Source: an uncultured virus (IMG/VR IMGVR_UViG_3300042568_000085) (lineage: Duplodnaviria; Heunggongvirae; Uroviricota; Caudoviricetes). Taken from it: a stretch of DNA of 64,000 nt. The notes below the pieces were generated by a model, which did not search any database, had not been told where the DNA came from, and was given only the letters and a program-made list of their open reading frames with translations. Below, piece by piece: positions 1-31,672 of the stretch. A program made the translations under genes and the position numbers. Positions within the stretch are counted from its first letter, which is position 1; each line of letters starts with the position of its first letter. The stretch lies in IMG/VR virus record IMGVR_UViG_3300042568_000085. One strand, written 5' to 3'.

Positions 1-43
1 TCTGCATGGTTAATCTGTGGGCCAGATACAGCATTGATTGTTG

Positions 44-3608: not shown

Positions 3609-3609
3609 A

Positions 3610-4621: not shown

Positions 4622-4627
4622 GTTTTG

Positions 4628-5370: not shown

Positions 5371-5379
5371 GATGACTCC

Positions 5380-5874: not shown

Positions 5875-5911
5875 TTTGAGTATCCTTCAAAAGTTGAACA
5901 ATTGTCTTGTA

Positions 5912-6675: not shown

Positions 6676-7295
6676 TACGCCACTTCCTTCAAGTCGTAAG
6701 CAGACCACTTGCTTTTTAGCGGCTTTGCTTTAAGCAAGTAAGAAATGCTGCCAGTTGGTATTCCCGTCTGTTGGCTTGCTTGCAGCCAGCTTTCGTAAAC
6801 TATACCATTGACCATCAGCGGCTTATTTTTTGATGCTGCAAGTTTTCTTTTGCATTCTTCAGTTTTTGGAACACCACGAACATATTGCATAGTTTTTTCT
6901 ATGGCTTCTTTAGGCATTTTTTTGCCCTTCATGCCAGACACCCTTCCCATAAGAGCCTTTTTCTTATTGGCAAGATGTTGTTCAGATTGCTTAATGCCCT
7001 TCAGATGTGATCCAGAAGTTTCACCACCAATAGCAATGTTCCAACCTATCCTTGGTACTGGTCTTAACTTTTTCTCAATCTCAAGACAGTAATTTTCGTT
7101 TGACACCAAGATCACTTCTTTAACAAGATTGTCCCAACCGTATTTGCGAATTGCGTTATATAAAGTTTGTTCTTTGCCAGTTTTAGCGCACGACTTATGA
7201 GCAGACATACGTTGCTCAAAATTCATGGCTATTCCAACATAGCCTTCAATGGCTACGTTGGTTTGCTCCGGCAAATGAATCCAGTATACAAACAT
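6675..7295 (-). CDS. Free-standing GIY-YIG homing endonuclease with NUMOD3-like tail
   Basis: FVYWI...YVGIA...R..H, LYNAIRKYGWDN, GWNIAIGGE, and basic repeats (KQSEQH, KTEECKRKLA). Confidence 0.85.
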   Translation of the reverse strand: MFVYWIHLPEQTNVAIEGYVGIAMNFEQRMSAHKSCAKTGKEQTLYNAIRKYGWDNLVKEVILVSNENYCLEIEKKLRPVPRIGWNIAIGGETSGSHLKGIKQSEQHLANKKKALMGRVSGMKGKKMPKEAIEKTMQYVRGVPKTEECKRKLAASKNKPLMVNGIVYESWLQASQQTGIPTGSISYLLKAKPLKSKWSAYDLKEVA

Positions 7296-7299
7296 AAGT

Positions 7300-7971
7300 T
7301 CACATAATTAAGGGCTTATAGGGGCGTAACAGCGTAGTCACGCCAAACGGAATGTCTTTTAGCTTTGTCTCTGTCGCGTTTGCACGGTTGTTATACAAGT
7401 GCGTCAGCAACAACAAAGCCGCTTGTTTAACCACAGGGTAACTAGCAATCGGATTGGCAGTAGTCGTGTACTGAACAATGATTGGCGCAGTCATCACCGA
7501 GTTAACATCAGTCGGCAAGTTGTTCACAATTACTTTGTTGCCCGAGGCATCGTAGTAATAGCTTGAACTGTTCAATGTCTGAAACACTGGTGGAAACGCA
7601 TCGTTCCAATATCCAACAGAGTTGATCGTAAGACCTGCTACAGCCGGGTTGACGTTCTGACTTACTTCGGGCAAATCAAGACTGATTGGCGATGCAACGA
7701 GACTTTCTGACCCGTAATAAACACGATACGACACAGGCAAGATCGACATACCCAAGTAGTCTTCAATTGCTTGTCGTGTGGCAATGCCAAGATTCAAAAC
7801 ATATGCGTCTTGTGATGTGTCATCAAACAAGTTCAGATGGTTTGTGATTTCGTCAGCAGTCAGCCATGCAGTGACATTATCACGCCCAATCTGTTCAACC
7901 TTTGCATAGTTAAACGGATTGCGCGTCTGAGCGCCAAAAGGCGCAGCGTATTGATAATTGTCAACGCTCAT
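7300..7971 (-). CDS. Head-tail connector (HK97 gp6-like)
   Basis: LT.DEI..HL...D...AIEDYLG...VKQAALLLLTHLYNNR...IPFGVTTLLRPYK. Confidence 0.88.
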   Translation of the reverse strand: MSVDNYQYAAPFGAQTRNPFNYAKVEQIGRDNVTAWLTADEITNHLNLFDDTSQDAYVLNLGIATRQAIEDYLGMSILPVSYRVYYGSESLVASPISLDLPEVSQNVNPAVAGLTINSVGYWNDAFPPVFQTLNSSSYYYDASGNKVIVNNLPTDVNSVMTAPIIVQYTTTANPIASYPVVKQAALLLLTHLYNNRANATETKLKDIPFGVTTLLRPYKPLIM

Positions 7972-7973
7972 GT

Positions 7974-9014
7974 TTAAGTCTCGATAGAACGAACACCAGC
8001 AAAAACGTCACGAACAGTGCTGACCATACGCTTTTCAGCGTACAGCGTCACAAAACCGGGGGTTGTTTGTTCCATTGCCTGAACAGTCATTTCTTCCACA
8101 TCGGCAATCGTCATGAAACGAGGCCAGTTGGCAAGGTAGATTGGTTTTGCGCCAACAGTACCAATAGGATCAAGGTAAGGGTTTGGAATCACAGGGAAAC
8201 CAAACACATGCAGCAAAGAACCAGCTTCTTCTGAGCCTGTTTCAACAAAGCTGTATGCGCCGTTTTGGTGAGCGTATTTACGCAGGGTCTGAATGGCAGA
8301 TGGGTGCATCATCCAAGCAGTACCGGGCATAGACCAGTATTGACCCGGCAACGCATTAGCCATGTCAACCAAGGTTTCCATCTCTAGCTGCAAGTTGTTA
8401 AAGCCAACAGAAGCAATCGTATGGCGACCATTGGTGATAGCTGTACCGCTAGTGCCAAAAGCAGCAGAAGCGCCAGCAGCGCCGGGGTAGCTGTTCAGGC
8501 CACGCAAGCCATCAGTGCCACCAGTTGCTGTTGTTGTAGAACCTGCTTGATCGTTGTTTAGGCCGCACGATGCGCCTTCCAACTGGGCAAATTCCATCAT
8601 CAGGTCTTCAACCAATTCAGATTGCAAACCATTAACATCTGACAACACAGCCGAGCGAACAGGCAGTTGTGCGGAAATCACGCGAGTCGGCAACTGCCAA
8701 ATGCTAGTGTCAATGTTGGGCGAGCCGCTGTTAGCGTTAACTGCGTAACCCCAAGGGTTTGTGCTGTTGGCAGCGTTACCAGTTTTGGCAACAAACTGAA
8801 CAGCGGAATTTCCGGGTACTTTGATGTTTCGTGCGCCCTGACGGAACGGGTTTGCATATCGCAATGCAGCGAATGCGTCATCAAAGTGTGTGCGACCACC
8901 GACATTCAGTCCTGAACCAGTGATAGCAGATGCCTCGCGCAAGTCAATCTTGACTTGATCGCCAGTTTCCAAAGTTTGCTTAATTCCAGACAGGATGCGT
9001 TCGGTAATGGTCAT
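7974..9014 (-). CDS. Second HK97-fold capsid protein (paralog with a short N-terminus)
   Basis: Aligns along its length with 9071-10420 (EASAITG..GGRT, DTSIWQL, GLRGL.SY, LP.QYW, PGF.T...EKR). Confidence 0.85.
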   Translation of the reverse strand: MTITERILSGIKQTLETGDQVKIDLREASAITGSGLNVGGRTHFDDAFAALRYANPFRQGARNIKVPGNSAVQFVAKTGNAANSTNPWGYAVNANSGSPNIDTSIWQLPTRVISAQLPVRSAVLSDVNGLQSELVEDLMMEFAQLEGASCGLNNDQAGSTTTATGGTDGLRGLNSYPGAAGASAAFGTSGTAITNGRHTIASVGFNNLQLEMETLVDMANALPGQYWSMPGTAWMMHPSAIQTLRKYAHQNGAYSFVETGSEEAGSLLHVFGFPVIPNPYLDPIGTVGAKPIYLANWPRFMTIADVEEMTVQAMEQTTPGFVTLYAEKRMVSTVRDVFAGVRSIET

Positions 9015-9037
9015 AACAGTTCCTAAATTATTGGCAC

Positions 9038-9064
9038 AAAAAGGAGGGGCATTTACGCCCCTCC
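9038..9064 (-). terminator. Intrinsic terminator between the two capsid genes
   Basis: Minus strand GGAGGGGC-gtaaat-GCCCCTCC followed by TTTTT. Confidence 0.75.
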
Positions 9065-9070
9065 GATTTA

Positions 9071-10420
9071 TCAGGTAGCTGTACCTGTTGAGCGATAACG
9101 AACACCTGCGTTTGGATCACGAACACTGACGGCCAATCTCTTTTCGCCGAAAAATGTTATAAATCCTGGAAGTGTCTGGTCATAGCGGCGCATAACCATA
9201 TTCAACCTGTCTACCGTGGTGTGAAAACGCGACCAATCAGCAAAATACATTGGGTACAGGCTGTTAGTGCCAGCAGCGCCAGTTGTGGCTTGGAACGGAG
9301 TATCCAAATACTTGTTCATAACCACATCAAAGCCGAGCATTCGACCAATGATGCCATCAGGAATCAACGACTCAGTAGAGTTGAAGATTGGGCGACCGTT
9401 AGTATCTTGCAGACCACGGATAGCTTGAGCCAAAACAGGACTAACCATAAACTTGGCGTTACTGGTCCAATACTGTTGCGGCAAAGCCATTACCAAGTTA
9501 ATAACATCTTTGTATTGGATGTTATTAGCACCGACAGTGTTGGCGTTGGTAGTGATCTGGTCATAAGTAGCCAGCGAGTGCAGACCGCTTGTAGAGCCAG
9601 TGCCAGAAGTGCCAAAAGCAGCAGCAGAAGTTGTACCACCAGTGTAAGTGGCGTTAGAACCACCGTAACTATCAAGGCCACGCAAACCGTTTGTTCCACC
9701 GTAAGGGTTGCTCACGGATTGTGCAGCTTGGTCATTATTCTGAATTGCCGAAAGTGCCTCTGACTGACTGAATGAGGCCAGCATGTCGTCAACAACCACA
9801 GCTTCCAAACCATCAATGTCGTCCAGCGCAGCAGTACGAATTGGGAACTGCACGTTCAGGTCTTGCAAAACCAATTGCCAGATGCTTGTGTCTTCAGTGG
9901 TGGTTGCACCGTTGTTCTGGATCGCATAGCCCCATGCTTCACCCGGATTTCCTGTGCGCACACGAAACTGGTACGAGGAACCGTCAGTAGCCACAGTGCG
10001 AGACAGACCACGCAACGGGTTCATCAGACGCAGGGCCGTAAATGTTGGATCGTAGCCAGTACGACCACCCTTACCATCACCGCCACCTGTCAGAGCAGAG
10101 GCTTCTTTCAGGTACGCATCCATTTGGGCTTCGTCTGCAAAGATTTGCAGTTCTTTTTCCAGACGGTTGTTACCTTTGTAAAAGGTAGACAGTTGCTCAC
10201 GCACCGAACGGTTCACATCTTGGCGAACAGTTTTGGCGGGTGTGCGAATGAACTCGGGCATTTGGATAGAAGCAACTTTGGCTTCCAGAGCAGACACCAT
10301 TTCGCTGAATTCAGCTTTGACAGCCTCAACAGCAGCAGGGATTTTGGCTTCAACAGCAGAGATACCTTCGGCTTGTTTAGCTTCGATGGCATCCAATTTT
10401 TCGAGGATAACTTGAGACAT
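9071..10420 (-). CDS. Major capsid protein, HK97 fold, with N-terminal coiled-coil delta domain
   Basis: Follows the protease; IRGLQDTNGRPIF, MLGFDV and FADWSR motifs. Confidence 0.92.
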   Translation of the reverse strand: MSQVILEKLDAIEAKQAEGISAVEAKIPAAVEAVKAEFSEMVSALEAKVASIQMPEFIRTPAKTVRQDVNRSVREQLSTFYKGNNRLEKELQIFADEAQMDAYLKEASALTGGGDGKGGRTGYDPTFTALRLMNPLRGLSRTVATDGSSYQFRVRTGNPGEAWGYAIQNNGATTTEDTSIWQLVLQDLNVQFPIRTAALDDIDGLEAVVVDDMLASFSQSEALSAIQNNDQAAQSVSNPYGGTNGLRGLDSYGGSNATYTGGTTSAAAFGTSGTGSTSGLHSLATYDQITTNANTVGANNIQYKDVINLVMALPQQYWTSNAKFMVSPVLAQAIRGLQDTNGRPIFNSTESLIPDGIIGRMLGFDVVMNKYLDTPFQATTGAAGTNSLYPMYFADWSRFHTTVDRLNMVMRRYDQTLPGFITFFGEKRLAVSVRDPNAGVRYRSTGTAT

Positions 10421-10423
10421 GAT

Positions 10424-11206
10424 TTAACCTTTAAGACGTTTATCAAGGAGTTTGAGAAGTTCACGTTGCTCAAGAGCAGCGAGAATTTCAGCTTCGGTTG
10501 CCTCCGCATCAGAATCACTCTGAGTTGGCGCATTTTCAATAGGCTTTTCAACAGCATCACGCTGTTCAATCACCGTCTTGAACACAGATGCGGCGGCAAC
10601 CGACATCTGCTTGGACAGACCTGCATCCCGCAAGGCTTCTTCCAATACTTTCAAATCAGCAGAGCCATCAGGTCGGAAATACTCCAACTTTTTGATTTCT
10701 GCTTTCATGTTATTGGGGTGCATGACAACGCTAGTCTCTCGCAAACCACCTTTTGTGATTTGGAAATATGCTTCGTCTGATTGGTCTGGTTCGCCAGCAG
10801 CATTGACCATTTGATATTCTTCAGCATAAGCACCAACAGAAACACCGCCAAACATATTGGGGCTTTCTTTCATCACTTGGTACAGATCAGAGCCAGTTGT
10901 GGTGTTCAGATACAGGCGACCAGAAGCATTCATGCCCTCGTCATCCATCTCAATGCTTGTCCACTCGCCAACAGGGATAGCGTCAGCATTGTGATTGACG
11001 TACATAGGCAGTGGTCGGCCTGATGCAGCAAACTCTTTGGCCCACTGCATAAAGCCTTCTGGCTTGTAGAAAAACTTACGACCATCAGCGCCTTCTCGTG
11101 CGCCCCAAGTCGTAATGCGAGCCTCAATCTGTCCAGACGGTTGACCGTTGTCGGCTTTCTCGTTGAGATTTAGCTTGGCTTCGCAGATAAGATTCAATGT
11201 CTTCAT
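10424..11206 (-). CDS. HK97-family prohead protease
   Basis: PMYVNH, PVGEW, GVSVG, LRETSVVMHPNN motifs; between portal and capsid. Confidence 0.9.
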   Translation of the reverse strand: MKTLNLICEAKLNLNEKADNGQPSGQIEARITTWGAREGADGRKFFYKPEGFMQWAKEFAASGRPLPMYVNHNADAIPVGEWTSIEMDDEGMNASGRLYLNTTTGSDLYQVMKESPNMFGGVSVGAYAEEYQMVNAAGEPDQSDEAYFQITKGGLRETSVVMHPNNMKAEIKKLEYFRPDGSADLKVLEEALRDAGLSKQMSVAAASVFKTVIEQRDAVEKPIENAPTQSDSDAEATEAEILAALEQRELLKLLDKRLKG

Positions 11207-11342
11207 TGATTGCCCCTAAAGCAATTGATTGGTTATTGTCCTGTATTTTAGGGGGTTGCCCTAGAAGTACAGGCAACTGTTTAGGTCGTTTGACCTGTTT
11301 GGCTAATGCTACCAGATATTGTGTATCAGTACGCATAATATA

Positions 11343-12740
11343 TCAAGTAGTGCCAATGTTCATTTTTTTGGTCTGATTACCACCGCCGCCACCAGTATCT
11401 TTGGGGCTAGTACCTGCAATTGGATCAACAGGCTCTGGCTCTTTAACCAACTCATCACCACCCTCAACAGATGGCAGATTCATGTAGTTCCGGGCTTCGT
11501 TCGGGGTCATAATGCCACCCTTCACGCCAGAAGTAGCAAAGTTCATCTGGTCCAAAGGCGCACCCTTCAGGAAGTCCTTGGTGTCAAACTCCACGCACAA
11601 AGACGGGTAGCCTTCCAGCAAATGCTGAGTCAACTTCTGCTGAATGTTGACAATTGTGGGGTACATGGTGGTCTTGTAAAACTCGTCCAAAGCAGTTTGG
11701 CTGTTGTTGAACTTGCCATCATGTATGCCGATCATGGAAGGCGGCACACCAAACAAACCGCAGATTCGGCGCATAGTCATCAGTTTCAAAGCAGCCGCAT
11801 CAGTGTCCTGCAAGGTCAGCATTTCCAGTTTCTGATACTTCATGCCCTGATCCAGCAACATGCCCTGACCCGGCTTGCTAGGGTCACTGGTCTTGCTGCC
11901 AGTCATGTTGTTCCACGCCTCTTTCAGACGGGCGGCAATCTCTTTGTACTTGCCATCAGGAATAACCTGATCGGTGACAAACATGCCGGATGGCTTCGCG
12001 CCGTTCTGCATTACAAAGTTGGCGTACAGGTCAATGTCTTGGTCCAGACCAACCAACTCAGTCGCCAAAATAGCTTTGTTAAAACCAGCCGAGCCTTGCC
12101 ATGCCATTTCCTTGCCGTGCATGACTTGGAAATACTTGAACTCATGGTCTTTGTTAAAACCATAGCTAGGCGTAGACAGACGGAATGTTGGATAACGTGT
12201 AGGCGTGATGTTCACCGCAATCAGCGTTGAATCCAGCACATACATCTCAAGCGGAGTTTCAGTAGAACTGTTCTGGTCTTTCCTCCACCACAGGGTAAAG
12301 GCTTCACCAGACAACTCGTACCACATCAGCCACTGATACCAAAACTCATACTTGCTCTGAAAGTTGTTTGGCGTGTTTAGCAGACGAGCAACCTGTTTGG
12401 CTTTGGCTTTGTCTCGCGTTCCTACGCCTTCACCTTTGACAGCATCAACGGTTTTACCGTCTGCCATTTCGCAGCAAATCTTGATCGGCAACTGAGCCAA
12501 AGCACGGGCTTTTACCCCCACGCAGGACATGATTGTGCTGTTTCTGGTCAGCACAGACATATCCACCGGGCGACCAGCAGTTGTGGTGCTGGCAGTGGTC
12601 ACATAGAGGATTTGGGTGTTGACACCACCACGTTTGTCACTACCCTGATAAACAATGTTGTTACCAAGGGCTGTCTGACCGAACAAAGTATTGCTCTCAG
12701 ACTGAGTGTTTTTGCGCTTGAAAATGTCAAAAATTGCCAT
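11343..12740 (-). CDS. HK97-family portal protein
   Basis: LLNTPNNFQS, NGAKPSG, ICGLFGVPPSMIG, MTPNEAR motifs. Confidence 0.95.
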   Translation of the reverse strand: MAIFDIFKRKNTQSESNTLFGQTALGNNIVYQGSDKRGGVNTQILYVTTASTTTAGRPVDMSVLTRNSTIMSCVGVKARALAQLPIKICCEMADGKTVDAVKGEGVGTRDKAKAKQVARLLNTPNNFQSKYEFWYQWLMWYELSGEAFTLWWRKDQNSSTETPLEMYVLDSTLIAVNITPTRYPTFRLSTPSYGFNKDHEFKYFQVMHGKEMAWQGSAGFNKAILATELVGLDQDIDLYANFVMQNGAKPSGMFVTDQVIPDGKYKEIAARLKEAWNNMTGSKTSDPSKPGQGMLLDQGMKYQKLEMLTLQDTDAAALKLMTMRRICGLFGVPPSMIGIHDGKFNNSQTALDEFYKTTMYPTIVNIQQKLTQHLLEGYPSLCVEFDTKDFLKGAPLDQMNFATSGVKGGIMTPNEARNYMNLPSVEGGDELVKEPEPVDPIAGTSPKDTGGGGGNQTKKMNIGTT

Positions 12741-12764
12741 GATTTCCCCTCAATTTCCTACACT

Positions 12765-14444
12765 TTACCACTCTAGCGACCTAAAGCCAAATGATTCACT
12801 GACAAATACGTTATCCAAATGGCAATGCAAAGCCATAATCATGGCAATAATACCGTCCACTTTGGCTGACGGGTCTGCTTCGTTCTTCCTGACCTTCACG
12901 TTTCCGTTGACATCGGTGTAAACCTCGCAGTTTCCAAGCTGCCAACCAACAAACGGGTTGCCATCATGGTGAATTGCCTTCTTCAGAATCAGTTGCTCAG
13001 TAGTCTTAGACGGGTTTGACAGCATAGCCATGCCCTGACCAACCTTTTTTACAGGCAAGCCATCAGCGTACAGGTTTGCCACCAAAGCAGCGGCGTTGTA
13101 CGGGTCATACGCAATTTCTTTGACGTTGTACTTTTCACATTCCTGTTTGATGTAGTTCTGAATCTCGGTCAGGTCAGTTACGTTACCCGGCGTAAGCCTC
13201 AATATGCCAGTTGACTTGGCCTGTAAAAATATACTCTTGTAGTGGTTCGGAATTAGCTCAATGCTTTCTTCCGGTAGAAAGAATTGGAACTTGGCATAAA
13301 AGTTTTCTTCGCTGTACCTGTGCAAAGTACAGACAGCGTTCAAGTCCCGAGTGTGCGCCAAGTCAAACGCAACAAATGTTGATTCTGGTTTGTCAGTTGG
13401 GAATGGCGCAATTGATTCATCCCAATACCTACGGTCAACCCATGCAGAGTTAGCCGACACATAGATATTCAACTGTTTGCACAAGAACTCGTTTAGGCTT
13501 GCTGGCTTGGCAGACGCTTCTTCAGCCATCTGCTGAATGTGCTGAGTCGTGACCGATACCCCAAGCATCGGGTTCGCTTTGCCCCATACCGCAGGGTCAG
13601 CCCAATTATCTCCGGGATCAATGCTATACAGTAGACCAAACCAGCGAAAGCTATCAGCAGAAGCGCCACGCAGGACAGTACGAAAGTGGGAAAGGTCTTC
13701 AAAGAACTTGGTTTCCTTAGTGAAGCTGGCAGTTGTCAGGTACATACGCAGCGGGTTTTTCCGAGCGCCCATACCCGAATGCAACACCTCAATTGACTGT
13801 CTCTCAGTAATCTGAGCAGCCTCGTCAATCATGGCGCAAGACGGGTTCTTGCCGTCACCAGTCTTACGGTTCTCCCGTGACAGCGCCCGGTAAGTAGAGG
13901 TCGAGTCGCCAGCCTTCTTCAATTCACTACGGTAAGCAATAAACTTAGCCCCCAACTCGGGCCTCATGTTTTCTACGATAGCCTTGGACGAATCAAAGCA
14001 AATAGACGCTTGATCCCGGTTAGTAGCCAGAGTAAACACTTCAGCTCCAGCATCACCAAACTGCAACTCATACAGCGCAATGATGGACGCAATGGTTGTC
14101 TTGCCAGATTTACGAGGCACGAACAAAATGACATCGGTGACATATCGGTATGTGTGGTCTTTCCTGTCCCTGAACCCGTAGATAGCCGCCAAGTACATTA
14201 CCTGAAACGGCTGTAGCTCAATGGATTTCCCGGCATCCGGGCCTTTTACATGGCGGCAGAATTTGACGAATTTGAGGATGTGTTCAGCCTTGGCAGGGAC
14301 AAACTCGTAAGGCGCATCCTTACGCTCGACCATATCCAAGAACCGTTGGCAAGCTAGTTTGACATCCTCACACGCCTGAATGTCACCCCTAGTTACCGCT
14401 ACCGCATACTCAAACGCAGGGTTAAGCAGTGGCGAATAGCTCAT
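12765..14444 (-). CDS. terL: Terminase large subunit (Terminase_1 type)
   Basis: Walker A VPRKSGKT, Walker B MIDE, nuclease motifs AFDLA...DL, YDPYNA, KVDGIIA. Confidence 0.95.
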   Translation of the reverse strand: MSYSPLLNPAFEYAVAVTRGDIQACEDVKLACQRFLDMVERKDAPYEFVPAKAEHILKFVKFCRHVKGPDAGKSIELQPFQVMYLAAIYGFRDRKDHTYRYVTDVILFVPRKSGKTTIASIIALYELQFGDAGAEVFTLATNRDQASICFDSSKAIVENMRPELGAKFIAYRSELKKAGDSTSTYRALSRENRKTGDGKNPSCAMIDEAAQITERQSIEVLHSGMGARKNPLRMYLTTASFTKETKFFEDLSHFRTVLRGASADSFRWFGLLYSIDPGDNWADPAVWGKANPMLGVSVTTQHIQQMAEEASAKPASLNEFLCKQLNIYVSANSAWVDRRYWDESIAPFPTDKPESTFVAFDLAHTRDLNAVCTLHRYSEENFYAKFQFFLPEESIELIPNHYKSIFLQAKSTGILRLTPGNVTDLTEIQNYIKQECEKYNVKEIAYDPYNAAALVANLYADGLPVKKVGQGMAMLSNPSKTTEQLILKKAIHHDGNPFVGWQLGNCEVYTDVNGNVKVRKNEADPSAKVDGIIAMIMALHCHLDNVFVSESFGFRSLEW

Positions 14445-14793
14445 CTACATCACTCACTTTTGCCTTCAACTTCGGGCGACCACGGGCCACAAGACCTAGT
14501 TCAGCCAGCATCTTGATAGCCTTGTCAGCCATCTCAGTGCGAATCTTGAACCAAGCTGTCACGCCCTCGTTGTTGCCGTACACGGTGACATGGCCTCTGT
14601 CTCGGATGTTGATTTCAGCAGTCAGCAAGCTGTCAACCGTGATGACCAATGCGCCAACCAACAGTTCATCAGATGCCGTGAGTGTTCCTGTCGAGGCTTC
14701 GACTTCAGCGCGAATGGCTGTTTCAAACGCTGCTTTGTCCCAAGTGGACGGGTCGTTTAAGTAGCCAAGAATGTGACGAGGTTTTTTTGCCAT
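14422..14793 (-). CDS. terS: Terminase small subunit (P27-like)
   Basis: Upstream of and overlapping terL; start MAKKPRH; ELGL...R C-terminal motif. Confidence 0.8.
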   Translation of the reverse strand: MAKKPRHILGYLNDPSTWDKAAFETAIRAEVEASTGTLTASDELLVGALVITVDSLLTAEINIRDRGHVTVYGNNEGVTAWFKIRTEMADKAIKMLAELGLVARGRPKLKAKVSDVDELFATA

Positions 14794-15065
14794 AAGTTGA
14801 GTTCCTTTTGTCTTGTCATGCTTTAGCGTACCACATTTGGGGAATTCCCACAAAATACTCCCCCCTCTTGACTTTGTTCCCCTACGGATTCGTCCCCGCG
14901 CCTGCTCCTACGCCAAAAGCGACACTTTTAGTTTCTAATCTGTCACTTGATACTGCATGGGTACTGCTTTTTAAGGCATGGCGTGGCTTGATGATGCTGT
15001 ATTGCAAACCCAAGCATTACATAATTTGGCGTGTGCTGTATAGATGCACAGGATGACGGTGGATA

Positions 15066-15491
15066 CTAGATAGAAGTAATTACATAGTGATAATCAGACA
15101 GGCAATAATCTTTTTCACCATTGACTGTGTAATGTCTGAATATCCCTTTCAATTCAAGACCAGATTTAAATGAATGATGTGATTCACAAAGGCTTTGAAA
15201 GATATTTATTTTGAATGCCTGTTCACCTAATGCAGACCATTTGAATAGATGGTCTATATGCTCTGCTTGAGTTATCTGGTTATTTAATAAACAGGCTTGG
15301 CACAGTGGCTGTTTAGATAACTGTGCTGTTCTTTGTCTTGCCCATGCTGCTGTTTTGTAATGGGCATTGAATCGCTGCCTGTCTTGGGTGGTGGTCTTAG
15401 GTGGTGAATGCTCTGCACAAAAGGCACTGCCTTTAATGGATGGTGCTTTGCAGTGGTATCTGCTGCACTGTGTGGGTGGTGTCATAGGCAT
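15066..15491 (-). CDS. HNH endonuclease associated with the terminase (HK97 gp74-like)
   Basis: YKTAAW...QPLCQAC...HIDH...FQSLCESHHS; adjacent to terS. Confidence 0.85.
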   Translation of the reverse strand: MPMTPPTQCSRYHCKAPSIKGSAFCAEHSPPKTTTQDRQRFNAHYKTAAWARQRTAQLSKQPLCQACLLNNQITQAEHIDHLFKWSALGEQAFKINIFQSLCESHHSFKSGLELKGIFRHYTVNGEKDYCLSDYHYVITSI

Positions 15492-15498
15492 TTATAAA

Positions 15499-15629
15499 TT
15501 ATGCACATTTTATCCACAAAGGGCCAGGTTATCCACAGATGTGCAAGATGTGGGCCAGAGTTATGCACAGGTTTTCAGTCTTATATAAGACTTAAATCTG
15601 TGGATTGATAGCACTAGCAGTGTGGATAA
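15499..15629. promoter_or_regulatory. Cluster of five DnaA boxes (TTATNCACA) plus a 16-bp palindrome
   Basis: TTATGCACA 15499 and 15561, TTATCCACA 15510 and 15529, TGTGGATAA 15621; AGTCTTATATAAGACT 15577-15592. Confidence 0.75.
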
Positions 15630-15797
15630 CTTTTTCTAAGGGGTAAGTATGGGCAAAGCCAAAAACGTCTTAAAAGGGCTTTAAAGGGCTTCTATGGGCC
15701 TTTGTAGAAAAGAGACAAAGAAGCATAGTTTTTTGTTGATAACTTGCCTTATATATAGTGAAATAGAGACCCCTTTGTTTTTTATAGGAGATTCTCA

Positions 15798-16043
15798 ATG
15801 TCAACTTTCGGCTATGCACCCTTTTATTTCACCACTGGTCGCACCTATGACGCACCACAAGTGCTGCTTATCACTGTTGAACAGAAAAAAACTGACATAT
15901 ATGGACTGACTGACATCGTTGCCACATTTAAAGACGCATCGCGCCACATCTCAGGCCGAATCGAAACCATCTTGTTTCCCGGTGGTCTCATTGGCGAAGC
16001 AGTGTTGAAGGAATATGACGCTGGCAACTATTCCCCTTTGTAA
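15798..16043 (+). CDS. Hypothetical early protein
   Basis: 81 aa, strong AGGAG RBS. Confidence 0.7.
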   Translation: MSTFGYAPFYFTTGRTYDAPQVLLITVEQKKTDIYGLTDIVATFKDASRHISGRIETILFPGGLIGEAVLKEYDAGNYSPL

Positions 16044-16069
16044 CTTCAAACCTTTAAGGAGAAAACACC

Positions 16070-16294
16070 ATGAAATATCAACCAGCTTTCAACGTATGGG
16101 CCATGCCTGATGCCTTCTACAAGCACATCCAGCCCGGTCAATGGGTCTATGCAGGAGACAAGACTAACAAGGGCATCTTCTTAGGTGTCAAGAAGTCAGG
16201 CACTGTGGTGGTGGCTTGGTATCAAAACGCTAAGTCACACAAGTCATTTAGGGACTATGTGAAGACCCTGCACAACTATGCATCTGTTAAATAA
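16070..16294 (+). CDS. Hypothetical early protein
   Basis: 74 aa, TAAGGAG RBS. Confidence 0.7.
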   Translation: MKYQPAFNVWAMPDAFYKHIQPGQWVYAGDKTNKGIFLGVKKSGTVVVAWYQNAKSHKSFRDYVKTLHNYASVK

Positions 16295-16306
16295 GGAGAT
16301 ACCAAA

Positions 16307-16591
16307 ATGAAAGCCTACAAGCACTTAATCAAGCACTGCCTGTCTATGGGCTGCACTGTCTCTGTGTGGGATGGTGAGGAATGGCAGGTCAAAAGAAGCA
16401 CTGGTTACAAGGCCATCATTGATGCCATTGAATCAGTAGAAGAAGCACAGCTAAGAATCAGACAGAAAGATGCTGTCATTGGATGGGCCTTGGTGTCTGC
16501 CTTTGGCCTTGAAGATGATGAAACAGTGGTAGACCATACTTGCACATCATTTATGGATGAATGGTCAGATATTTATTCAGAAACCATTTAA
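16307..16591 (+). CDS. Hypothetical early protein
   Basis: 94 aa, TAAGGAG RBS. Confidence 0.7.
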   Translation: MKAYKHLIKHCLSMGCTVSVWDGEEWQVKRSTGYKAIIDAIESVEEAQLRIRQKDAVIGWALVSAFGLEDDETVVDHTCTSFMDEWSDIYSETI

Positions 16592-16604
16592 AGGAGAAAC
16601 CAAA

Positions 16605-16700
16605 ATGAAAGAAACATTAATTGATATCTGCTTTGCAGTATTTTTGGGCTTAGTGCTGTGCTTTGTTGCACTCCATAGCCTTGATGCCCTTTTTTATTAA
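16605..16700 (+). CDS. Small single-TM peptide (MKETLIDICFAVFLGLVLCFVALHSLDALFY)
   Basis: 31 aa ORF translated by hand; AAGGAG RBS; hydrophobic. Confidence 0.6.
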   Translation: MKETLIDICFAVFLGLVLCFVALHSLDALFY

Positions 16701-16725
16701 TCAACCAAAGACAAGAGAAAACAAA

Positions 16726-17376
16726 ATGCAAAAAATATTCATGCTCAAAAAAGTAGCATCTACTATCAATGGTGGATTAACTCAGACTTCTAAGATGCCT
16801 TGTAAGTCTTATTCTCTGCCTACACTGGCATGCAAGACAGGCTTCAAGATGGCACAGATTAAAGGCAGCATTTGCAGCACTTGCTATGCAGATAAGGGCT
16901 TCTACTCTATGTATCAAAACACCATACAACCAGCACAGCACGCTAGATTAGATTCTCTCTCTAGTGAGTATTGGGTGTCTTCTATGGTGGCTTTAATAGG
17001 TGCTGATGCTTTCTTCAGATGGCACGACAGTGGAGACCTGCAGGGTCTGTGGCATTTGGAGAAAATAGCACAGGTAGCAGCAGAGACACCAGACACCATG
17101 CACTGGTTACCTACTAGAGAATATGCAATGGTTAAAGAATATATCTCTAAATATGGAAGCCTTCCTGATAATCTGATCATTCGGTTATCTGCTATGTATC
17201 CTGATCAACCAGTAAAAGTGCCTTCAAGCCTTCAAGGGATTAAGAATATTACTGTGTCTAATGTCCATACTAAAAACCCTGTAGGAGAAGCTTGTAAAGC
17301 ACCATCACAAGGTGGAGAGTGCAGAGAGTGCAGGGTCTGCTGGTCTGCTGTGCCTGTGTCTTATGAGTTGCATTAA
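16726..17376 (+). CDS. GP88-like Cys-rich (putative Fe-S) protein
   Basis: TSKMP...SLP..AC.TG...SICSTCYA...FRWHDSGD...HWLPTRE...C..CR.CW pattern. Confidence 0.75.
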   Translation: MQKIFMLKKVASTINGGLTQTSKMPCKSYSLPTLACKTGFKMAQIKGSICSTCYADKGFYSMYQNTIQPAQHARLDSLSSEYWVSSMVALIGADAFFRWHDSGDLQGLWHLEKIAQVAAETPDTMHWLPTREYAMVKEYISKYGSLPDNLIIRLSAMYPDQPVKVPSSLQGIKNITVSNVHTKNPVGEACKAPSQGGECRECRVCWSAVPVSYELH

Positions 17377-17390
17377 TAGGAGATTTAAAA

Positions 17391-17600
17391 ATGATATTTA
17401 CAGATATTGAACATGAGTTTTTACGGGTTGTGCCTTTTCCTGTTAATCAGCCATTGATGAATGGAAAGATTCAATTACAGATTAAAACACCACAAGGCAA
17501 AACAAAACTGATTGAGATTTCACCATCACAATTCAAAGCCATTGAAAAAATGGTTTGTTATGGGTGGACACCAGTTTTTAATGAGGAGATTTCCAAATGA
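17391..17600 (+). CDS. Hypothetical protein
   Basis: 69 aa, AGGAG RBS. Confidence 0.6.
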   Translation: MIFTDIEHEFLRVVPFPVNQPLMNGKIQLQIKTPQGKTKLIEISPSQFKAIEKMVCYGWTPVFNEEISK

Positions 17601-17833
17601 GTTACTTTTCCGAATTAGATATTGAATTACAAGAGAAGGCAGATTACAAAATGCCAAAAGAAATCTGCATTAACTCTGTAGGGGTTTGCCTTGACGATAC
17701 AGGCCAGCCTGTGCAGCTTTATATTGTTGATACTATATTGGGATGTGGTTTACTGGATGTTTTTCTTTTAAATGGGCCAGAAGATCAAGAGCCAAGAGAA
17801 GTGCATCGAGATGACTTTTGGGTTTTGACTTAA
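17597..17833 (+). CDS. Hypothetical acidic protein
   Basis: 78 aa, GAGGAG RBS, ATGA overlap. Confidence 0.6.
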   Translation: MSYFSELDIELQEKADYKMPKEICINSVGVCLDDTGQPVQLYIVDTILGCGLLDVFLLNGPEDQEPREVHRDDFWVLT

Positions 17834-17834
17834 T

Positions 17835-17874
17835 AAACCCAAGAATACCCGGATTCTTTCCGGGTTTTTTTGGG
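17835..17874 (+). terminator. Intrinsic terminator ending the early operon
   Basis: ACCCGGA/TCCGGGT stem followed by a T-run. Confidence 0.75.
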
Positions 17875-17880
17875 CTTGCT

Positions 17881-18315
17881 ATGTAAGTGAGTGCTCACTT
17901 CTTGATATAAGGGTCTATAAGGCATTTTTAGAGTGTCAAGCCACTACCCTACAGGCAGCATAAAAACAAGCTGCTGTGGGCCTTGTATGGGCTGCTGTGG
18001 TGGTCTTGTCTGGTCTGTGGTCTGCTGCTGGTCTGCCTGTGCTGCTGCTACCAGATAAACCGAGGGTTTACCCTTAGGGGTTTTCCCCTACGTAGTAGGG
18101 GTTTACCCTGATGCGAAGTGAGTGCTTACATACATGGCCTTTGGCTTATATAACCAAGGGCTTAATAAGGGCCAGAAAAGTCTAAAAGCCAACTACGCAT
18201 TTCGGAAAAAAAATTTGGAAGAAAAAAAATGCCTAGTTGGACTAGGCAAAATGTTTCCCGTTCCGAAAACATGGCAAAACCAAAAAAACTTTTTCAAACT
18301 ATCTCAAATTTTTTC
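17881..18315. promoter_or_regulatory. Non-coding region with repeated palindromic motifs and A/T tracts
   Basis: AAGTGAGTGCTYAC twice (17884, 18116); three GGGTTTWCCC-type palindromes (18063-18109); GGTCT repeats; many A-tracts 18205-18315. Confidence 0.55.
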
Positions 18316-18494
18316 ACCAGATATGACGGTGGTTTCCAAGAACTTTCGTCAATTCTGTAGCAAATCACATCTTTGCTCTGTGCTTTGTAGCCAGAAGCGT
18401 AAGCAGCCCTAGCAACTGCCAATGCTTTTGCTTTTGTATCGAATGGCCCTTGCGAACCCCAATACCAACCTGCTTGATTCTTTGTGAGTGGCAT
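18294..18494 (-). CDS. Small hypothetical protein
   Basis: MPLTKNQAGWYWGSQGPF; coupled to the upstream stop. Confidence 0.6.
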   Translation of the reverse strand: MPLTKNQAGWYWGSQGPFDTKAKALAVARAAYASGYKAQSKDVICYRIDESSWKPPSYLVKKFEIV

Positions 18495-18883
18495 TATTTT
18501 AGGAATCTGAGTTTGTAAAGGGTAGATGCGACTTGATCGGACAGTTCATCAACGATGTTTTGCAGGTCGCTATCTTGAGGGAATCCGGGCATCTCGCGGT
18601 ATCTGGCAATTTCTTTGCCAACGTACAGAACTAGCTCTAGACCATTTTCCCCCAGAAAAAGTGCCTTTTCCGCGAAAAATATTTTCGACTTTTTGCCTTG
18701 GTAGGCTTCAATGAATTTGTCAGCCAAGTCTTCAATGCCTTCGTAGAACTCAGCAAGGGCCATGTGTTGAGCATAGCTATCCGTGCCAAAGTGGTGAATG
18801 TGGGCTGCTGTGACCGAGTTTAGAAGGCACATGGCAAAGTCGCCAATGATGTTTTCTTGTGCTTCTTTTACGCTGAATTTCAT
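18494..18883 (-). CDS. Ferritin/Dps-like four-helix protein (DUF5856-like)
   Basis: AHIHH...SYAQHMAL.EFYE...LADKFIEAYQG...LQNIVDE...TLYKLRFL. Confidence 0.8.
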   Translation of the reverse strand: MKFSVKEAQENIIGDFAMCLLNSVTAAHIHHFGTDSYAQHMALAEFYEGIEDLADKFIEAYQGKKSKIFFAEKALFLGENGLELVLYVGKEIARYREMPGFPQDSDLQNIVDELSDQVASTLYKLRFLK

Positions 18884-18900
18884 GGTGGATTCTCCTGTTG

Positions 18901-19359
18901 TCATTGTATAACCGTAACGTCTTTTGAGCGAGAGCGCAATTTGTTGCGGGTTTTTTCAATCATGCGCTCGTATTCTGACCGACTGATTGACCTTCTTTGC
19001 TTGTCGTGCCACTCTTGAACTTCAATGATTGACTTTAACCCAACGCCAGTTAACAGCATTTTTCCTGTTTTTTCATAGCGTTTGGTAGCGGCTTTAAGCT
19101 CTAGCTCTGCCATCATGCAATCAACCAGTGCTTCTGGACCAATAAGATTTCTTGCAACAATCTGACAAACGTTATTCATATCAACTAACTCTTGCCAAGT
19201 TTCAATTGTCCCTTTGCCCGTTCGCATAGCTTCAATTGCGGCCAATTCTTTTTTGCTTAATTCATCACGCTGATCTTTTGTTGTAATGCAAGCGCCAGCG
19301 ATGGCGTGTGCTATTGGATCAATCAACTGGTAAACCTTCCTTTTGCACTGCTTTCTCAT
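18901..19359 (-). CDS. Conserved hypothetical phage protein
   Basis: 152 aa, MRKQCKRKVYQLIDPIAHAIAGA start. Confidence 0.7.
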   Translation of the reverse strand: MRKQCKRKVYQLIDPIAHAIAGACITTKDQRDELSKKELAAIEAMRTGKGTIETWQELVDMNNVCQIVARNLIGPEALVDCMMAELELKAATKRYEKTGKMLLTGVGLKSIIEVQEWHDKQRRSISRSEYERMIEKTRNKLRSRSKDVTVIQ

Positions 19360-19553
19360 TTAACTCTATCCTTGTAAGTGTTGTACCGCCAAGCTGTTGC
19401 TTCTTTGTCTATGCGTTGCCAAATTTCTTCTTTTTCTATTTGAGACATAGAGTTCCACACAGCAACTTCCATGTAGGTTCTGCCACAACCTTTACAAACC
19501 GTGTCATAAAGAGTCGTACAGACTGCTATGCAAGGACTATCTGGCCTTGTCAT
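19356..19553 (-). CDS. DUF1289-like small Cys/Fe-S protein
   Basis: SPCIAVC...CKGCGRT..EVAVW. Confidence 0.8.
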   Translation of the reverse strand: MTRPDSPCIAVCTTLYDTVCKGCGRTYMEVAVWNSMSQIEKEEIWQRIDKEATAWRYNTYKDRVK

Positions 19554-19642
19554 TTGATAATCCTCATAAAAGCACCGCACCGGGCGCATTTGTAAATGGG
19601 CTGGCCCTCGACGGGCTCCCAACGGTGTTGGCATTCAGTCAT
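19550..19642 (-). CDS. 30-aa zinc-ribbon peptide MTECQHRWEPVEGQPIYKCARCGAFMRIIK
   Basis: Hand translation; ATGA-coupled on both sides; paralog at 57071-57163. Confidence 0.65.
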   Translation of the reverse strand: MTECQHRWEPVEGQPIYKCARCGAFMRIIK

Positions 19643-20007
19643 TTCATCATCTCCAGCATTGCTTGGCGGCAATCGTTCCACCCTGCCACATATGCAGGTA
19701 GTTCGTCTTCATTTGGGCCAATGGCATCAGGCACGGCTGGCTGTGCTGCTTTCAGTCGCTTGATCTCAGACATATGCTCCCGCAGCGATTCCTGCGTGGC
19801 TTCAAGCAAAGACCAGTCTCGGCCCTCTGGCGCAGGTGCTGGCTGTGCGGGTGGGGTGGTGTAGAGCTTTGTGCCGTGTGCAAGCGCATAGAAGTCGCCC
19901 GTTTGAGCGCAAGCCATAACATGGCCTGTCTTGCTCACTCGGATATACGCCACAGGCTCATAGTCCAGCCCCAACTCTCTGGCGTTCTCTGCCTTCTTGT
20001 CGAGGGC
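19629..20007. repeat. Direct repeat copy 1 (~380 bp; copy 2 at 57150-57528)
   Basis: Base-by-base comparison: identical except 19742/57263; offset 37,521. Confidence 0.95.
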
Positions 20008-31583: not shown

Positions 31584-31672
31584 TTATCCACAGAAAAACT
31601 AGCACCGACTGCCTACATTCCTAGTTATTCACAAGCCGCTGTGGATAACTGTGGACAAAACCCTGTGCACAA
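31584..31672. promoter_or_regulatory. DnaA-box cluster
   Basis: TTATCCACA 31584, TTATTCACA 31625, TGTGGATAA 31640; one-mismatch boxes at 31650 and 31664. Confidence 0.7.

What the first reader, a model, noticed from the sequence alone, without database searches (positions are those of the whole stretch)
15060..18060. CpG-depleted island at the predicted first-ejected genome end, a possible T5-like 'stealth' leading region in a small siphovirus
Seen (manual count): 2 CG dinucleotides in 15060-15800, none in 16230-16940 and about 9 in 16940-18050. GC, CC and GG are common there, and the neighbouring terminase gene has CG on almost every line. The island holds the HNH gene and an opposite-strand operon of small genes with strong RBSs, including GP88-like. 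Known: in HK97-like phages cos lies between HNH and terS, so this would be the last-packaged, first-ejected end; T5 first-step DNA avoids restriction sites and encodes host-takeover genes. Inference: entry region purged of CG-containing restriction/defence targets that expresses anti-defence proteins before the rest enters. It is bracketed by DnaA boxes and a palindrome/A-tract block that could act as an injection pause signal.
Basis: partly seen in the sequence, partly recalled or inferred. Interest (0 to 1): 0.8.

Follow-up and report, generated by a model that had tools for sequence, protein, structure and literature searches.

The report
CpG-free gene cassette at phage end
A 3-kb stretch almost free of the dinucleotide CG sits right beside the physical end of a lake-water phage genome; it is a swappable accessory gene cassette that appears to be kept CG-free by selection, but why is not settled.

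Summary
Window 15060-18060 has 26 CG (o/e 0.21) against 0.83 for the window. Island genes hold 11 CG against 87±7 expected from backbone codon usage.

I mapped the cohesive end at 14895-14904 from contig ends: 21 of 46 relatives' contigs stop at 14894.

The island is a self-contained unit:
- an HNH gene on the minus strand;
- a cluster of 5 DnaA boxes;
- a plus-strand operon of small genes closed by its own terminator.

It is a swappable cassette. Relatives with near-identical backbones carry CpG-depleted (4 of 17 in the TerL-anchored sample), normal or CpG-enriched (1.2-1.8) cassettes at the same place.

Depletion marks one deep HNH/cassette lineage. It is constrained at synonymous sites (T before G fixed, p=0.006) and shows no deamination signature. 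No CpG-poor donor genome was found.

Against a general "stealth" reading:
- the backbone is more purged of 6-bp palindromes than the island;
- one operon gene keeps normal CpG;
- the DnaA boxes lie on the wrong side for a T5-like stop.

Verdict: a real, unusual, lineage-specific and probably selected feature. The mechanism is unresolved, and the T5-like reading is only partly supported.

The parts
14422..14794 (-). Small terminase gene (flank, normal CpG). The likely start is the ATG at 14794.
   Evidence: Pfam Terminase_4 E 1.9e-5; sequence read.
14895..14904 (.). cos core, a 10-nt cohesive end (CCCGCGCCTG on the + strand).
   Evidence: 21 of 46 relatives' contigs end exactly at 14894. Contigs L082, L086, L089 and L145, L148 start at the position of 14905. 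In run X2 the Logan contigs break at 14894|14905 with a 10-nt gap, while a contig of X1 spans it.
14905..14938 (.). Conserved right-end cos flank, shared by all cassette types. Homology to other cassette types breaks at about 14938.
   Evidence: blastn breakpoints at 14932-14944 in 9 loci; conserved starts CTCC...ACTTTTAGTTTC.
15066..15491 (-). HNH endonuclease gene, CpG o/e 0.06. It belongs to the depleted unit.
   Evidence: phrog_144 E 1.5e-16. Present in 18 of 18 right-end regions. The depleted HNHs form one clade, support 99/96.
15492..15797 (.). Divergent control region with 5 DnaA boxes (15499-15629; 3 are perfect TTATCCACA), a palindrome at 15573-15596 and a promoter-like site for HNH (15535-15507, minus strand).
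   Evidence: A cluster of 3-6 boxes is kept in 10 of the 11 depleted cassettes listed, L082 (identical to the window) included. L012 has one box, and the 7 other cassettes have 0-1.
15798..16043 (+). orf81, the first operon gene, with normal CpG (12 CG, o/e 0.93).
   Evidence: Conserved in the window/L082, L085 and L087, with dN/dS about 0.2-0.3 at dS 0.55-1.0. Absent from L025, L027 and L057.
16070..16294 (+). orf74, basic, function unknown.
   Evidence: phrog_21585 E 2.6e-25. Homologues at 33-56% identity in phages of Pseudomonas, Nitrincola, Limnohabitans and others.
16307..16591 (+). orf94, acidic (pI 4.65), no CpG.
   Evidence: phrog_5680 E 7e-9.
16605..16700 (+). 31-residue hydrophobic peptide gene with a strong RBS, no CpG.
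   Evidence: RBS repeat family D1; cluster c9.
16726..17376 (+). GP88-family protein, Cys-rich, CpG o/e 0.10.
   Evidence: PF17338 E 3.5e-19. Model pLDDT 78. Only weak matches to TIM-barrel and radical-SAM folds, Z<=6.
17391..17600 (+). orf69, function unknown.
   Evidence: Cluster c10, o/e 0.17.
17597..17833 (+). orf78, very acidic (pI 4.05), function unknown.
   Evidence: Family members at 43-53% aa identity (L057, L089) are still CpG-poor at 0.09-0.14, and L087 (51%) is at 0.41.
17847..17875 (+). Intrinsic terminator that closes the plus-strand operon. Its stem holds two CCGG.
17876..18229 (.). Non-coding spacer with a TG-rich tract (about 17960-18050) and GGGGTTT(T/A)CCC hairpin repeats. 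CpG returns to normal here, and backbone homology resumes at about 18163.
18222..18248 (-). Intrinsic terminator that closes the leftward backbone operon.

Best explanation
What it is (well supported). The island is the right-end accessory module of an HK97-like cos siphovirus that is abundant in lakes and probably virulent. The module runs HNH gene, DnaA-box control region, then a self-terminated operon of small genes. It begins within about 160 nt of the cohesive end. It is a recombination hotspot where alternative cassettes are exchanged between near-identical backbones.

How the CpG desert arises (inferred). The window carries one old allele class of this module in which CpG is removed and kept out by purifying selection acting on the DNA itself. 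It is not produced by codon usage, GC content or methyl-C deamination.

The most likely agent is CG-directed host nucleases, meaning restriction enzymes of many specificities. The backbone shows that these are a dominant pressure on this phage. The backbone solves the problem site by site, by purging palindromes. The fast-shuffling small-gene module at the end that should enter the cell first solves it generically, by having almost no CG at all. That would let the module be transcribed before it can be cut.

Shown: location, module anatomy, lineage restriction, and constraint at synonymous sites. Inferred: entry order, early expression, and the identity of the selective agent.
For: - cos was mapped at 14895-14904, and the desert is the only CpG outlier in three near-complete relatives and lies next to cos.
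- The depletion is at DNA level. CpG is missing in all codon contexts and in non-coding DNA. Island genes hold 11 CG against 86.6 or 37.8 under two null models.
- All 10 NCGN contexts are low, at 0.11-0.70.
- There is no TG/CA excess: 1.37-1.39 in the island against 1.33-1.42 in the backbone. Arg has moved to AGR.
- Constraint persists through the lineage's diversification. Synonymous pyrimidine sites before G are 8 polymorphic, 18 fixed T and 0 fixed C. Before non-G they are 47, 12 and 15 (Fisher p 0.0056). There is no such effect in adjacent backbone genes of the same contigs.
- Depletion persists at dS 2-2.7, and the depleted HNHs form one deep clade.
- All depleted homologues sit in this backbone. 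Of 53 GP88 loci, the 8 at >=81% identity are depleted and the 45 at <=71% are not. No fetched locus is CpG-poor throughout.
- The backbone shows extreme avoidance of CG-containing 6-mer palindromes, 2 against 56 expected.
- By zero-order o/e, GATC, GTAC and TCGA are lower in the cassettes than in the backbone, but only GATC stays lower under the Markov expectation.
- The module has its own terminator and RBS-matched small genes.
- Precedent: motifs in the first-injected region alone decide restriction sensitivity in T5-like phages and in Autographiviridae (PMC10644984 passages; PMC12455610 abstract).
Against: - Relatives with 94-99% identical TerL carry normal or CpG-enriched (1.2-1.8) cassettes at the same end. 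The enriched ones keep many CG palindromes, 30 in 18 kb.
- orf81 stays CpG-normal inside depleted cassettes.
- Non-CG 6-mer palindromes are purged less in the island than in the backbone.
- The island also differs from the backbone in non-CG dinucleotides (delta* 0.09-0.10) and in GC (0.42 against 0.48). This fits a foreign origin.
- Local avoidance pays off only if the rest of the genome enters late, and no two-step entry is known for cos siphoviruses.
- Lambda may eject either end first (PMC10287942, abstract).
- No cassette gene has a recognised anti-defence function.
- Host and host RM systems are unknown.
Confidence: 0.42

Rival explanations
1. Compositional heritage. The cassette is a classical moron-type import from an unsampled gene pool (another phage group or mobile element) whose DNA is CpG-poor throughout. 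Frequent re-import, rather than local selection, keeps it different from the backbone.
For: - Step-like CpG boundaries coincide with the homology breakpoints at about 14938 and 18163.
- Cassettes of every flavour are compositional aliens even when CG is ignored: delta* 0.09-0.10 for depleted and 0.17-0.22 for enriched, against 0.01-0.05 among backbones.
- GC is lower (0.42).
- orf81 with normal CpG looks like a piece with another history.
- L001 and L003 lack the operon altogether.
- Island genes are more similar between contigs than the neighbouring backbone gene is, which suggests horizontal spread.
Against: - No donor was found. There were 0 globally depleted contigs among 53 GP88 loci, 17 orf78 loci and 80 DnaA-pair loci, and homologues in other phages have normal CpG.
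- The HNH gene, a working part of this phage's packaging machinery, belongs to the depleted unit and forms a deep clade found only next to this cos.
- The synonymous-site constraint is visible within the lineage.
Confidence: 0.27
2. Self-protection from the phage's own packaging nucleases. The cos-associated HNH nickase and the terminase act near cos while the last few kilobases are translocated slowly. If the nickase prefers CG-containing short sites, the last-packaged DNA is purged of them to avoid premature cutting. Other HNH clades with other specificities would allow other compositions.
For: - Depletion is co-inherited with one HNH clade and confined to the cos-proximal right arm.
- The cos core itself contains two CpG.
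- Published cos-adjacent phage HNH enzymes are site-specific nickases with 3-7 bp sites, several containing CG such as CG|GT (PMC3592412, abstract and Table 1 passages read).
- ACGG/CCGT (0.15) and GTAC, GAAC and GGAC are among the most depleted words.
Against: - L012 has a depleted cassette with an HNH of the 'normal' clade.
- orf81 keeps 12 CpG at 900-1140 nt from the end.
- All NCGN contexts are depleted, not one motif.
- The terS side of cos is not depleted.
- The specificity of this HNH is unknown.
Confidence: 0.1
3. A physical or regulatory requirement of this module. One version is that CpG-poor, TpA-richer DNA is more bendable, which would suit the last-packaged, most tightly curved DNA. 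Another is that it favours binding by DnaA or nucleoid proteins, or the stability and translation of the module's transcripts.
For: - TpA is higher (0.74 against 0.56) and AA/TT lower in depleted cassettes.
- CpG depletion has been linked to higher predicted cyclizability in bacteria (PMC11282364, abstract read).
- The DnaA-box cluster is conserved in 10 of the 11 depleted cassettes listed and is absent or single in the others.
Against: - CpG-enriched, A-tract-richer cassettes (AA/TT 1.44) sit at the same position in sister phages, so there is no general physical need.
- The depletion covers genes on both strands and the spacers.
- GpC is not depleted, which argues against a simple RNA-stability effect.
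Confidence: 0.1
4. Mutational decay. CpG methylation followed by deamination, or another local mutator, erased CpG without selection.
For: CpG loss is the classical signature of methyl-CpG decay. One relative carries a C5 methyltransferase next to cos.
Against: - There is no TG/CA excess.
- Arg CGN is replaced by AGR, which needs transversions.
- The same molecule's backbone is unaffected.
- C5 methyltransferase passes the cut-off in 1 of 20 records, and that record is a CpG-enriched type.
Confidence: 0.03

Closest known systems
First-step-transfer (FST) region of T5-like phages
   Same: - It is a terminal region expected to enter first and carries small genes of unknown function in divergent units.
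- The presence of restriction targets there decides sensitivity.
- DnaA boxes occur in the region (PMC10644984 passages; 10.1101/866236 passages).
   Different: - T5 has long terminal repeats and a proven two-step entry. This phage has 10-nt cohesive ends, and no pause is known.
- The T5 boxes lie at the inner border of the FST. Here they lie between HNH and the operon, 600-725 nt from the end.
- T5 avoids particular sites. Here nearly all CG is gone, and only in one cassette lineage.
Variable leading (early-injected) region of Autographiviridae, such as Murciavirus against the Type I RM Mme2I
   Same: It is a hypervariable first-injected region, and motif absence there alone gives escape from restriction (PMC12455610, abstract read).
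   Different: Those are podoviruses with transcription-driven slow entry. In them a single motif matters, not a dinucleotide-wide purge.
Morons and hypervariability hotspots of HK97-like and other phages
   Same: It is an extra transcription unit with its own terminator and atypical composition. It lies between genes that are adjacent in relatives (L001, L003). The moron definition is recalled from Juhala/Hendrix work, which I did not read here. For the hotspot survey 10.1101/2024.10.15.618418 I saw only the search listing.
   Different: - The essential HNH gene shares the atypical composition.
- The composition is extreme (o/e 0.1-0.2), old and under constraint.
- A mirror-image CpG-enriched class exists at the same site.
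Leading regions of conjugative plasmids
   Same: The first-entering DNA carries early-expressed anti-defence and establishment genes. This is recalled, apart from the listing of PMC13370423.
   Different: Plasmid DNA enters single-stranded and uses ssDNA promoters. No CpG purge has been reported, to my knowledge.

Membership tests
T5-type first-step-transfer region | Lies at the genome end that enters the cell first | tested here: inconclusive
   It lies at the right cohesive end. The entry order is inferred from last-in-first-out, which has been questioned for lambda (PMC10287942).
T5-type first-step-transfer region | Two-step entry with an injection stop signal at the inner border | not testable with these tools
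   The DnaA-box cluster is proximal (15499-15629), not at the inner border. The inner border has terminators and hairpin repeats.
T5-type first-step-transfer region | Long terminal direct repeats that contain the region | tested here: not met
   The genome has 10-nt cohesive ends. The island occurs once per genome in G002-G004.
T5-type first-step-transfer region | Restriction targets absent there but present in the rest of the genome | tested here: not met
   This holds for CG in general. For 6-mer palindromes, however, the backbone is purged more strongly than the island.
Moron / accessory hotspot | Present or absent between genes that are adjacent in relatives | tested here: met
   In L001 and L003 the HNH is followed directly by the backbone genes c3/c2. 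The other contigs carry variable operons there.
Moron / accessory hotspot | Own promoter and terminator | tested here: inconclusive
   A terminator lies at 17847-17875. No consensus sigma-70 promoter was found for the operon. Only weak promoter-like sites were seen (3 found against 8.2 expected).
Moron / accessory hotspot | Nucleotide composition unlike the flanks | tested here: met
   delta* is 0.11 with CG and 0.09 without it, against 0.01-0.05 among backbones.
HK97-like cos packaging module | HNH gene, cos, terS and terL in that order | tested here: met
HK97-like cos packaging module | 10-nt 3' cohesive ends | tested here: inconclusive
   A 10-nt gap separates the left-end and right-end contig termini. 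This fits trimmed 3' overhangs, as in HK97 (PMC9410871, Fig. 1 legend). The polarity was not measured.
Methyl-CpG deamination decay | TG/CA excess matching the CpG loss | tested here: not met
   TG/CA is 1.37-1.39 in the island and 1.33-1.42 in the backbone.
GP88 family (PF17338) | Match above the Pfam gathering score | tested here: met
   70 bits against a cut-off of 24.4. The family has no known function.

The most novel reading that the evidence does not exclude
A cos siphovirus population keeps alternative CG-free and CG-rich leading-end cassettes as long-lived balanced alleles. The CG-free class would be a generic stealth design: it erases every CG-containing target from the first DNA to enter. 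That DNA carries a DnaA-box-controlled operon of counter-defence or takeover genes, so the phage can disarm CG-directed restriction before the rest of the genome is exposed. If so, this is a T5-like strategy evolved independently in a small HK97-like phage.
Probability: 0.2. Interest if true: 0.85.

Novelty: new variant of a known kind. Interest (0 to 1): 0.62.

Why it matters
Restriction avoidance in phages is known site by site and genome-wide, and for the first-injected regions of T5-like and T7-like phages. A dinucleotide-wide purge would be a new form of sequence-level adaptation. It is confined to a 3-4 kb exchangeable module at the cohesive end of a small siphovirus, held by selection, and has a CpG-enriched counterpart in sister phages.

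It points to a testable link between genome-end position, entry or packaging order, and defence evasion. The phage group is very abundant in lakes (357 related contigs in IMG/VR).

It also offers a simple signal for finding leading-end modules in uncultured phages: local CpG o/e next to mapped cos sites. If the cause is instead the phage's own HNH/terminase nucleases, it would reveal a constraint on last-packaged DNA that has not been described before.

Tried and rejected
- **Near-identity searches.** Searches of the phage and E. coli collections found nothing.
- **Read-based terminus mapping.** This was not possible because all 24 runs are kept as contigs. Contig ends were used instead. Runs X1 and X2 may be the source sample, so they are not independent.
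- **Host identification.** The only TerL match in 185,579 species genomes is a 4.7-kb contig of a Chitinophagaceae MAG, which I regard as uninformative. No tyrosine integrase was found in 5 records.
- **'Methylate or eliminate' idea.** A C5 methyltransferase passes the cut-off in only 1 of 20 records. It is an enriched type, L036, where the gene lies between cos and terL. This is too sparse to support the idea.
- **GP88 function.** Foldseek found no match at E<=0.001. VIA gave only Z<=6 matches to radical-SAM and GH18 barrels, within noise. NCBIfam gave nothing for 12 proteins. The Atlas returned only GP88 clusters.
- **Non-coding RNA.** Rfam found no RNA family in 14500-18700.
- **Donor search with a DnaA-box pair pattern.** It returned 120+ unrelated contigs. 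Some have moderately low CpG (0.37-0.45), but their homologues of cassette genes have normal CpG.
- **CpG gradient from the end.** None was seen. The profile is a step.
- **Literature.** I found no report of a local CpG desert in a phage genome. The library lacks most subscription journals.

Full report
**Observation.**

There are 2 CG in 15060-15800, none in 16230-16940 and 9 in 16940-18050. For 15060-18060 there are 26 CG (o/e 0.21, GC 0.41), against o/e 0.83 and GC 0.50 for the window. GpC o/e in the island is 1.2-1.5.

The depletion is far beyond what composition explains:
- Island genes hold 11 CG. The same proteins written with backbone codon usage give 86.6±6.7.
- Shuffling the island's own codons among synonymous sites gives 37.8±4.0 (0 of 500 shuffles <=11).
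- GC-matched 3-kb windows elsewhere have o/e 0.66-0.84.

CpG is missing at codon positions 1-2 (4 against 18.5 expected), 2-3 (0 against 31.1) and 3-1 (7 against 36.7), and in non-coding DNA. NCG codons are 0 of 156. Arg is AGR in 15 of 19 cases, against 41 of 165 in the backbone.

**What the window is.**

The structural genes are those of an HK97-like siphovirus, all on the minus strand: tape measure, two capsid-family genes, protease, portal, TerL, TerS. The closest isolate is Methylophilaceae phage P19250A, with TerL 61% identical. IMG/VR holds 357 related TerL stretches, and the DNA occurs in lake-water metagenomes.

The window is not one genome:
- Contig L082 matches 14905-20007 at 100% and then continues at 57070-64000.
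- About 0.4-0.45 kb at 19.55-20.0 kb is repeated at 57.07-57.53 kb.
- Contig depth differs on the two sides. In run X1 it is 47-52 up to 19.6 kb and mostly 19-23 beyond. In X5 it is 6-12 and then mostly 15-21.

So a 37-kb P22-like genome (20.0-57.07 kb) sits between two copies of a shared segment. This is most simply an assembly path through a repeat. It does not affect the island.

**Genome end.**

I examined 46 relatives' contigs whose end lies upstream of terL. Of these, 21, from 20 different metagenome ids, stop at exactly the position of window 14894, although their sequences differ there.

From the other side:
- L082, L086 and L089 and L145 and L148 start at the position of 14905.
- L090 starts with the intervening 10-mer, and L087 spans it.
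- In run X2 the contigs break at 14894|14905 without the 30-nt overlap that a graph branch gives. A contig of X1 spans 14512-18929. X1 and X2 may be the source sample.

The missing 10 nt (CCCGCGCCTG) fit a 10-nt cohesive end whose 3' overhang is lost in library making, as in HK97 (PMC9410871, Fig. 1 legend passage). The variable module begins 35 nt from the right end, and the desert begins within about 160 nt of it.

**Anatomy.**

- HNH (15066-15491, minus strand) and a plus-strand operon diverge from a 306-nt region: orf81, orf74, orf94, a 31-residue peptide, GP88-like, orf69 and orf78.
- That region holds 5 of the window's 11 DnaA boxes within 130 bp, three of them perfect TTATCCACA.
- The operon genes share near-identical AAGGAGA-N-ATG initiation regions.
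- The operon ends at an intrinsic terminator at 17847-17875. The leftward backbone operon ends at a convergent terminator at 18248-18222.
- No function could be assigned to the operon genes. The GP88-like model (pLDDT 78) gave only noise-level matches to radical-SAM or TIM-barrel folds.
- No integrase was found in 5 related records, 3 of them >=90% complete. There is almost no trace of the phage in bacterial genomes. The phage is probably virulent.

**Relatives.**

All 18 right-end regions compared have the same plan: cos, HNH, variable plus-strand operon, then conserved backbone genes. Homology to other cassette types breaks at about 14938 and resumes at about 18163. These are the CpG boundaries, and the profile is a step rather than a gradient.

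The cassettes come in three flavours:
- Depleted: the window/L082, L025, L027, L057, L012, L085-L089, L142 and L146.
- Normal or absent: L001 and L003.
- Normal to CpG-enriched: L040 is near normal (0.46-1.27 per gene). L026, L035, L036, L048, L143, L145, L147 and L148 are enriched, mostly 1.0-1.8 in 500-nt bins and per gene.

In the TerL-anchored sample, which is not biased by cassette genes, 4 of 17 loci are depleted.

Flavour does not follow the backbone. L057 (depleted) and L001 (normal) both have 99% identical TerL. Backbones of both types have the same dinucleotide signature (delta* 0.01-0.05). Cassettes are alien even when CG is ignored: 0.09-0.10 for depleted and 0.17-0.22 for enriched.

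In three near-complete depleted-type genomes the desert is the only outlier and abuts cos. Another opposite-strand early-looking block in G002 has normal CpG. No other desert occurs in 1.64 Mb of related loci.

**Origin of the depletion.**

It is not deamination decay. TG/CA is not raised (1.37-1.39 against 1.33-1.42). Instead CC/GG, AG/CT and TA rise.

It is inherited:
- The strongly depleted HNH genes (o/e 0.06-0.37, 10 rows) form one clade with support 99/96 and two deep branches. L012 (0.42) groups with the normal clade.
- Depletion persists at saturated synonymous divergence. The HNH of L089 has dS 2.7 and o/e 0.19. The orf78 of L057 has dS 2.0 and o/e 0.09.

It is constrained. In depleted cassette genes, synonymous pyrimidine sites followed by G are 8 polymorphic, 18 fixed T and 0 fixed C. 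Those followed by another base are 47, 12 and 15 (p 0.0056). Adjacent backbone genes in the same contigs show no such effect.

No donor was found:
- Of 53 GP88 loci, the 8 at >=81% identity are depleted (0.10-0.25) and all lie in this backbone. The 45 at <=71% have o/e 0.40-1.54.
- The orf78 family (17 loci) gives the same picture.
- Homologues next to DnaA-box pairs in unrelated phages have normal CpG.

I therefore favour selection against CpG acting on this module lineage. An unsampled CpG-poor gene pool with frequent re-import cannot be excluded.

**Testing the 'stealth' reading.**

For it:
- The position is right.
- CG-containing restriction targets are evidently a strong pressure on this phage. 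In the backbone 1-14800, CG-containing 6-mer palindromes are 2 against 56.2±6.7 expected from dinucleotide shuffles.
- By zero-order o/e, GATC, GTAC and TCGA are lower in the cassettes than in the backbone: 0.20/0.40/0.49, 0.20/0.23/0.80 and 0.19/0.31/0.44 for depleted/enriched/backbone. Under the Markov expectation only GATC stays lower, 0.27 against 0.49 in the backbone; GTAC is 0.57 against 0.86 and TCGA 0.76 against 0.80.
- There is precedent that only the first-injected region matters, in T5-like phages and in Autographiviridae (PMC10644984 passages; PMC12455610 abstract).

Against it:
- Sister phages do without the depletion, or have the opposite.
- Non-CG 6-mer palindromes are purged less in the island (27 against 48.6) than in the backbone (67 against 164.8).
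- orf81, a conserved gene (dN/dS about 0.2-0.3), keeps 8-14 CpG inside three depleted cassettes over dS 0.55-1.0.
- The terminal 160 nt has 5 CpG.
- The DnaA boxes are conserved in 10 of the 11 depleted cassettes listed (L012 has one) and are absent or single in the others. But they lie before the operon as seen from the end. They therefore cannot be a T5-type stop that admits the operon first. The T5 DnaA model is itself an untested proposal (10.1101/866236).
- A local purge helps only if the rest of the genome enters late, which is unknown here. Lambda may eject either end first (PMC10287942, abstract).

**Other readings.**

Published cos-adjacent HNH enzymes are site-specific nickases, several with CG-containing sites (PMC3592412). 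This suggests that the last-packaged DNA might be purged of the phage's own nuclease targets. L012 and orf81 speak against a simple form of this idea.

A mechanical or regulatory need is made unlikely as a general rule by the CpG-rich sister cassettes.

A phage C5 methyltransferase passes the cut-off in 1 of 20 records, an enriched type. That is too few to build on.

**Verdict.**

The predicted terminus is confirmed. The island is a lineage-specific, apparently selected, CpG-free allele class of an exchangeable right-end module. The T5-like stealth mechanism is possible but only partly supported, and several of its specific predictions fail.

I found no report of such a local CpG desert in a phage (searches, in a library that lacks most subscription journals).

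Noticed in passing
window 19550-20007 and 57070-57528; 20008-57070: The window is a composite. A roughly 0.4-0.45 kb near-identical segment occurs twice, with a 37-kb P22-like podovirus genome between the copies. The siphovirus continues at 57.07-64 kb (ERF, SSB and other genes). Contig depth differs between the two parts in runs X1 and X5, so this is probably an assembly path through a gene segment shared by two co-occurring phages.
   Followed up: partly
window 1-14800 and 20500-64000: Both phages avoid 6-bp palindromes very strongly. In the siphovirus backbone, those with CG are 2 against 56 expected and those without CG 67 against 165. CAATTG (18) and TTGCAA (11) make up 29 of those 67. 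In the P22-like part the figures are 51 against 235 and 191 against 433.
   Followed up: partly
L145 1-4000; L148 1-3500; L036, L035, L026, L048 right ends: Sister phages carry CpG-enriched cassettes (o/e 1.2-1.8, GCGC up to 3x) at the same right-end position, with the same step back to about 0.7 in the backbone. The right end is therefore compositionally bimodal in this phage group.
   Followed up: partly
L036 / G006:C1:8716-9348: One CpG-enriched relative has a C5 cytosine methyltransferase gene inserted between cos and terL (112 bits). None was found over the cut-off in the other 19 records searched.
   Followed up: partly
window 31584-31648: A second cluster of three DnaA boxes lies in the P22-like phage, upstream of its packaging genes.
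   Followed up: no
window 7974-9014 and 9071-10420: Two adjacent genes both match the Phage_capsid family (E 1e-20 and 2e-25). The same pair of positions exists in P19250A.
   Followed up: no
window 6675-7295 (-) and 45513-46055 (+): There are ORFs resembling GIY-YIG homing endonucleases, one inside the siphovirus head-tail connector region and one in the P22-like phage.
   Followed up: no
window 17960-18050 and 18060-18110: The non-coding spacer beyond the operon has a TG-rich tract of low complexity built from GCTGCTG/GGTCTG units. It is followed by three GGG(G)TTT(T/A)CCC hairpin-like repeats. No Rfam family matched.
   Followed up: no
L201, L211, L215, L221, L231 and others: Homologues of the GP88, orf74 and orf94 genes lie close to DnaA-box pairs in otherwise unrelated phage contigs. 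In several isolated podoviruses GP88 lies near the ends of the record. This suggests a widespread early module associated with DnaA boxes.
   Followed up: partly
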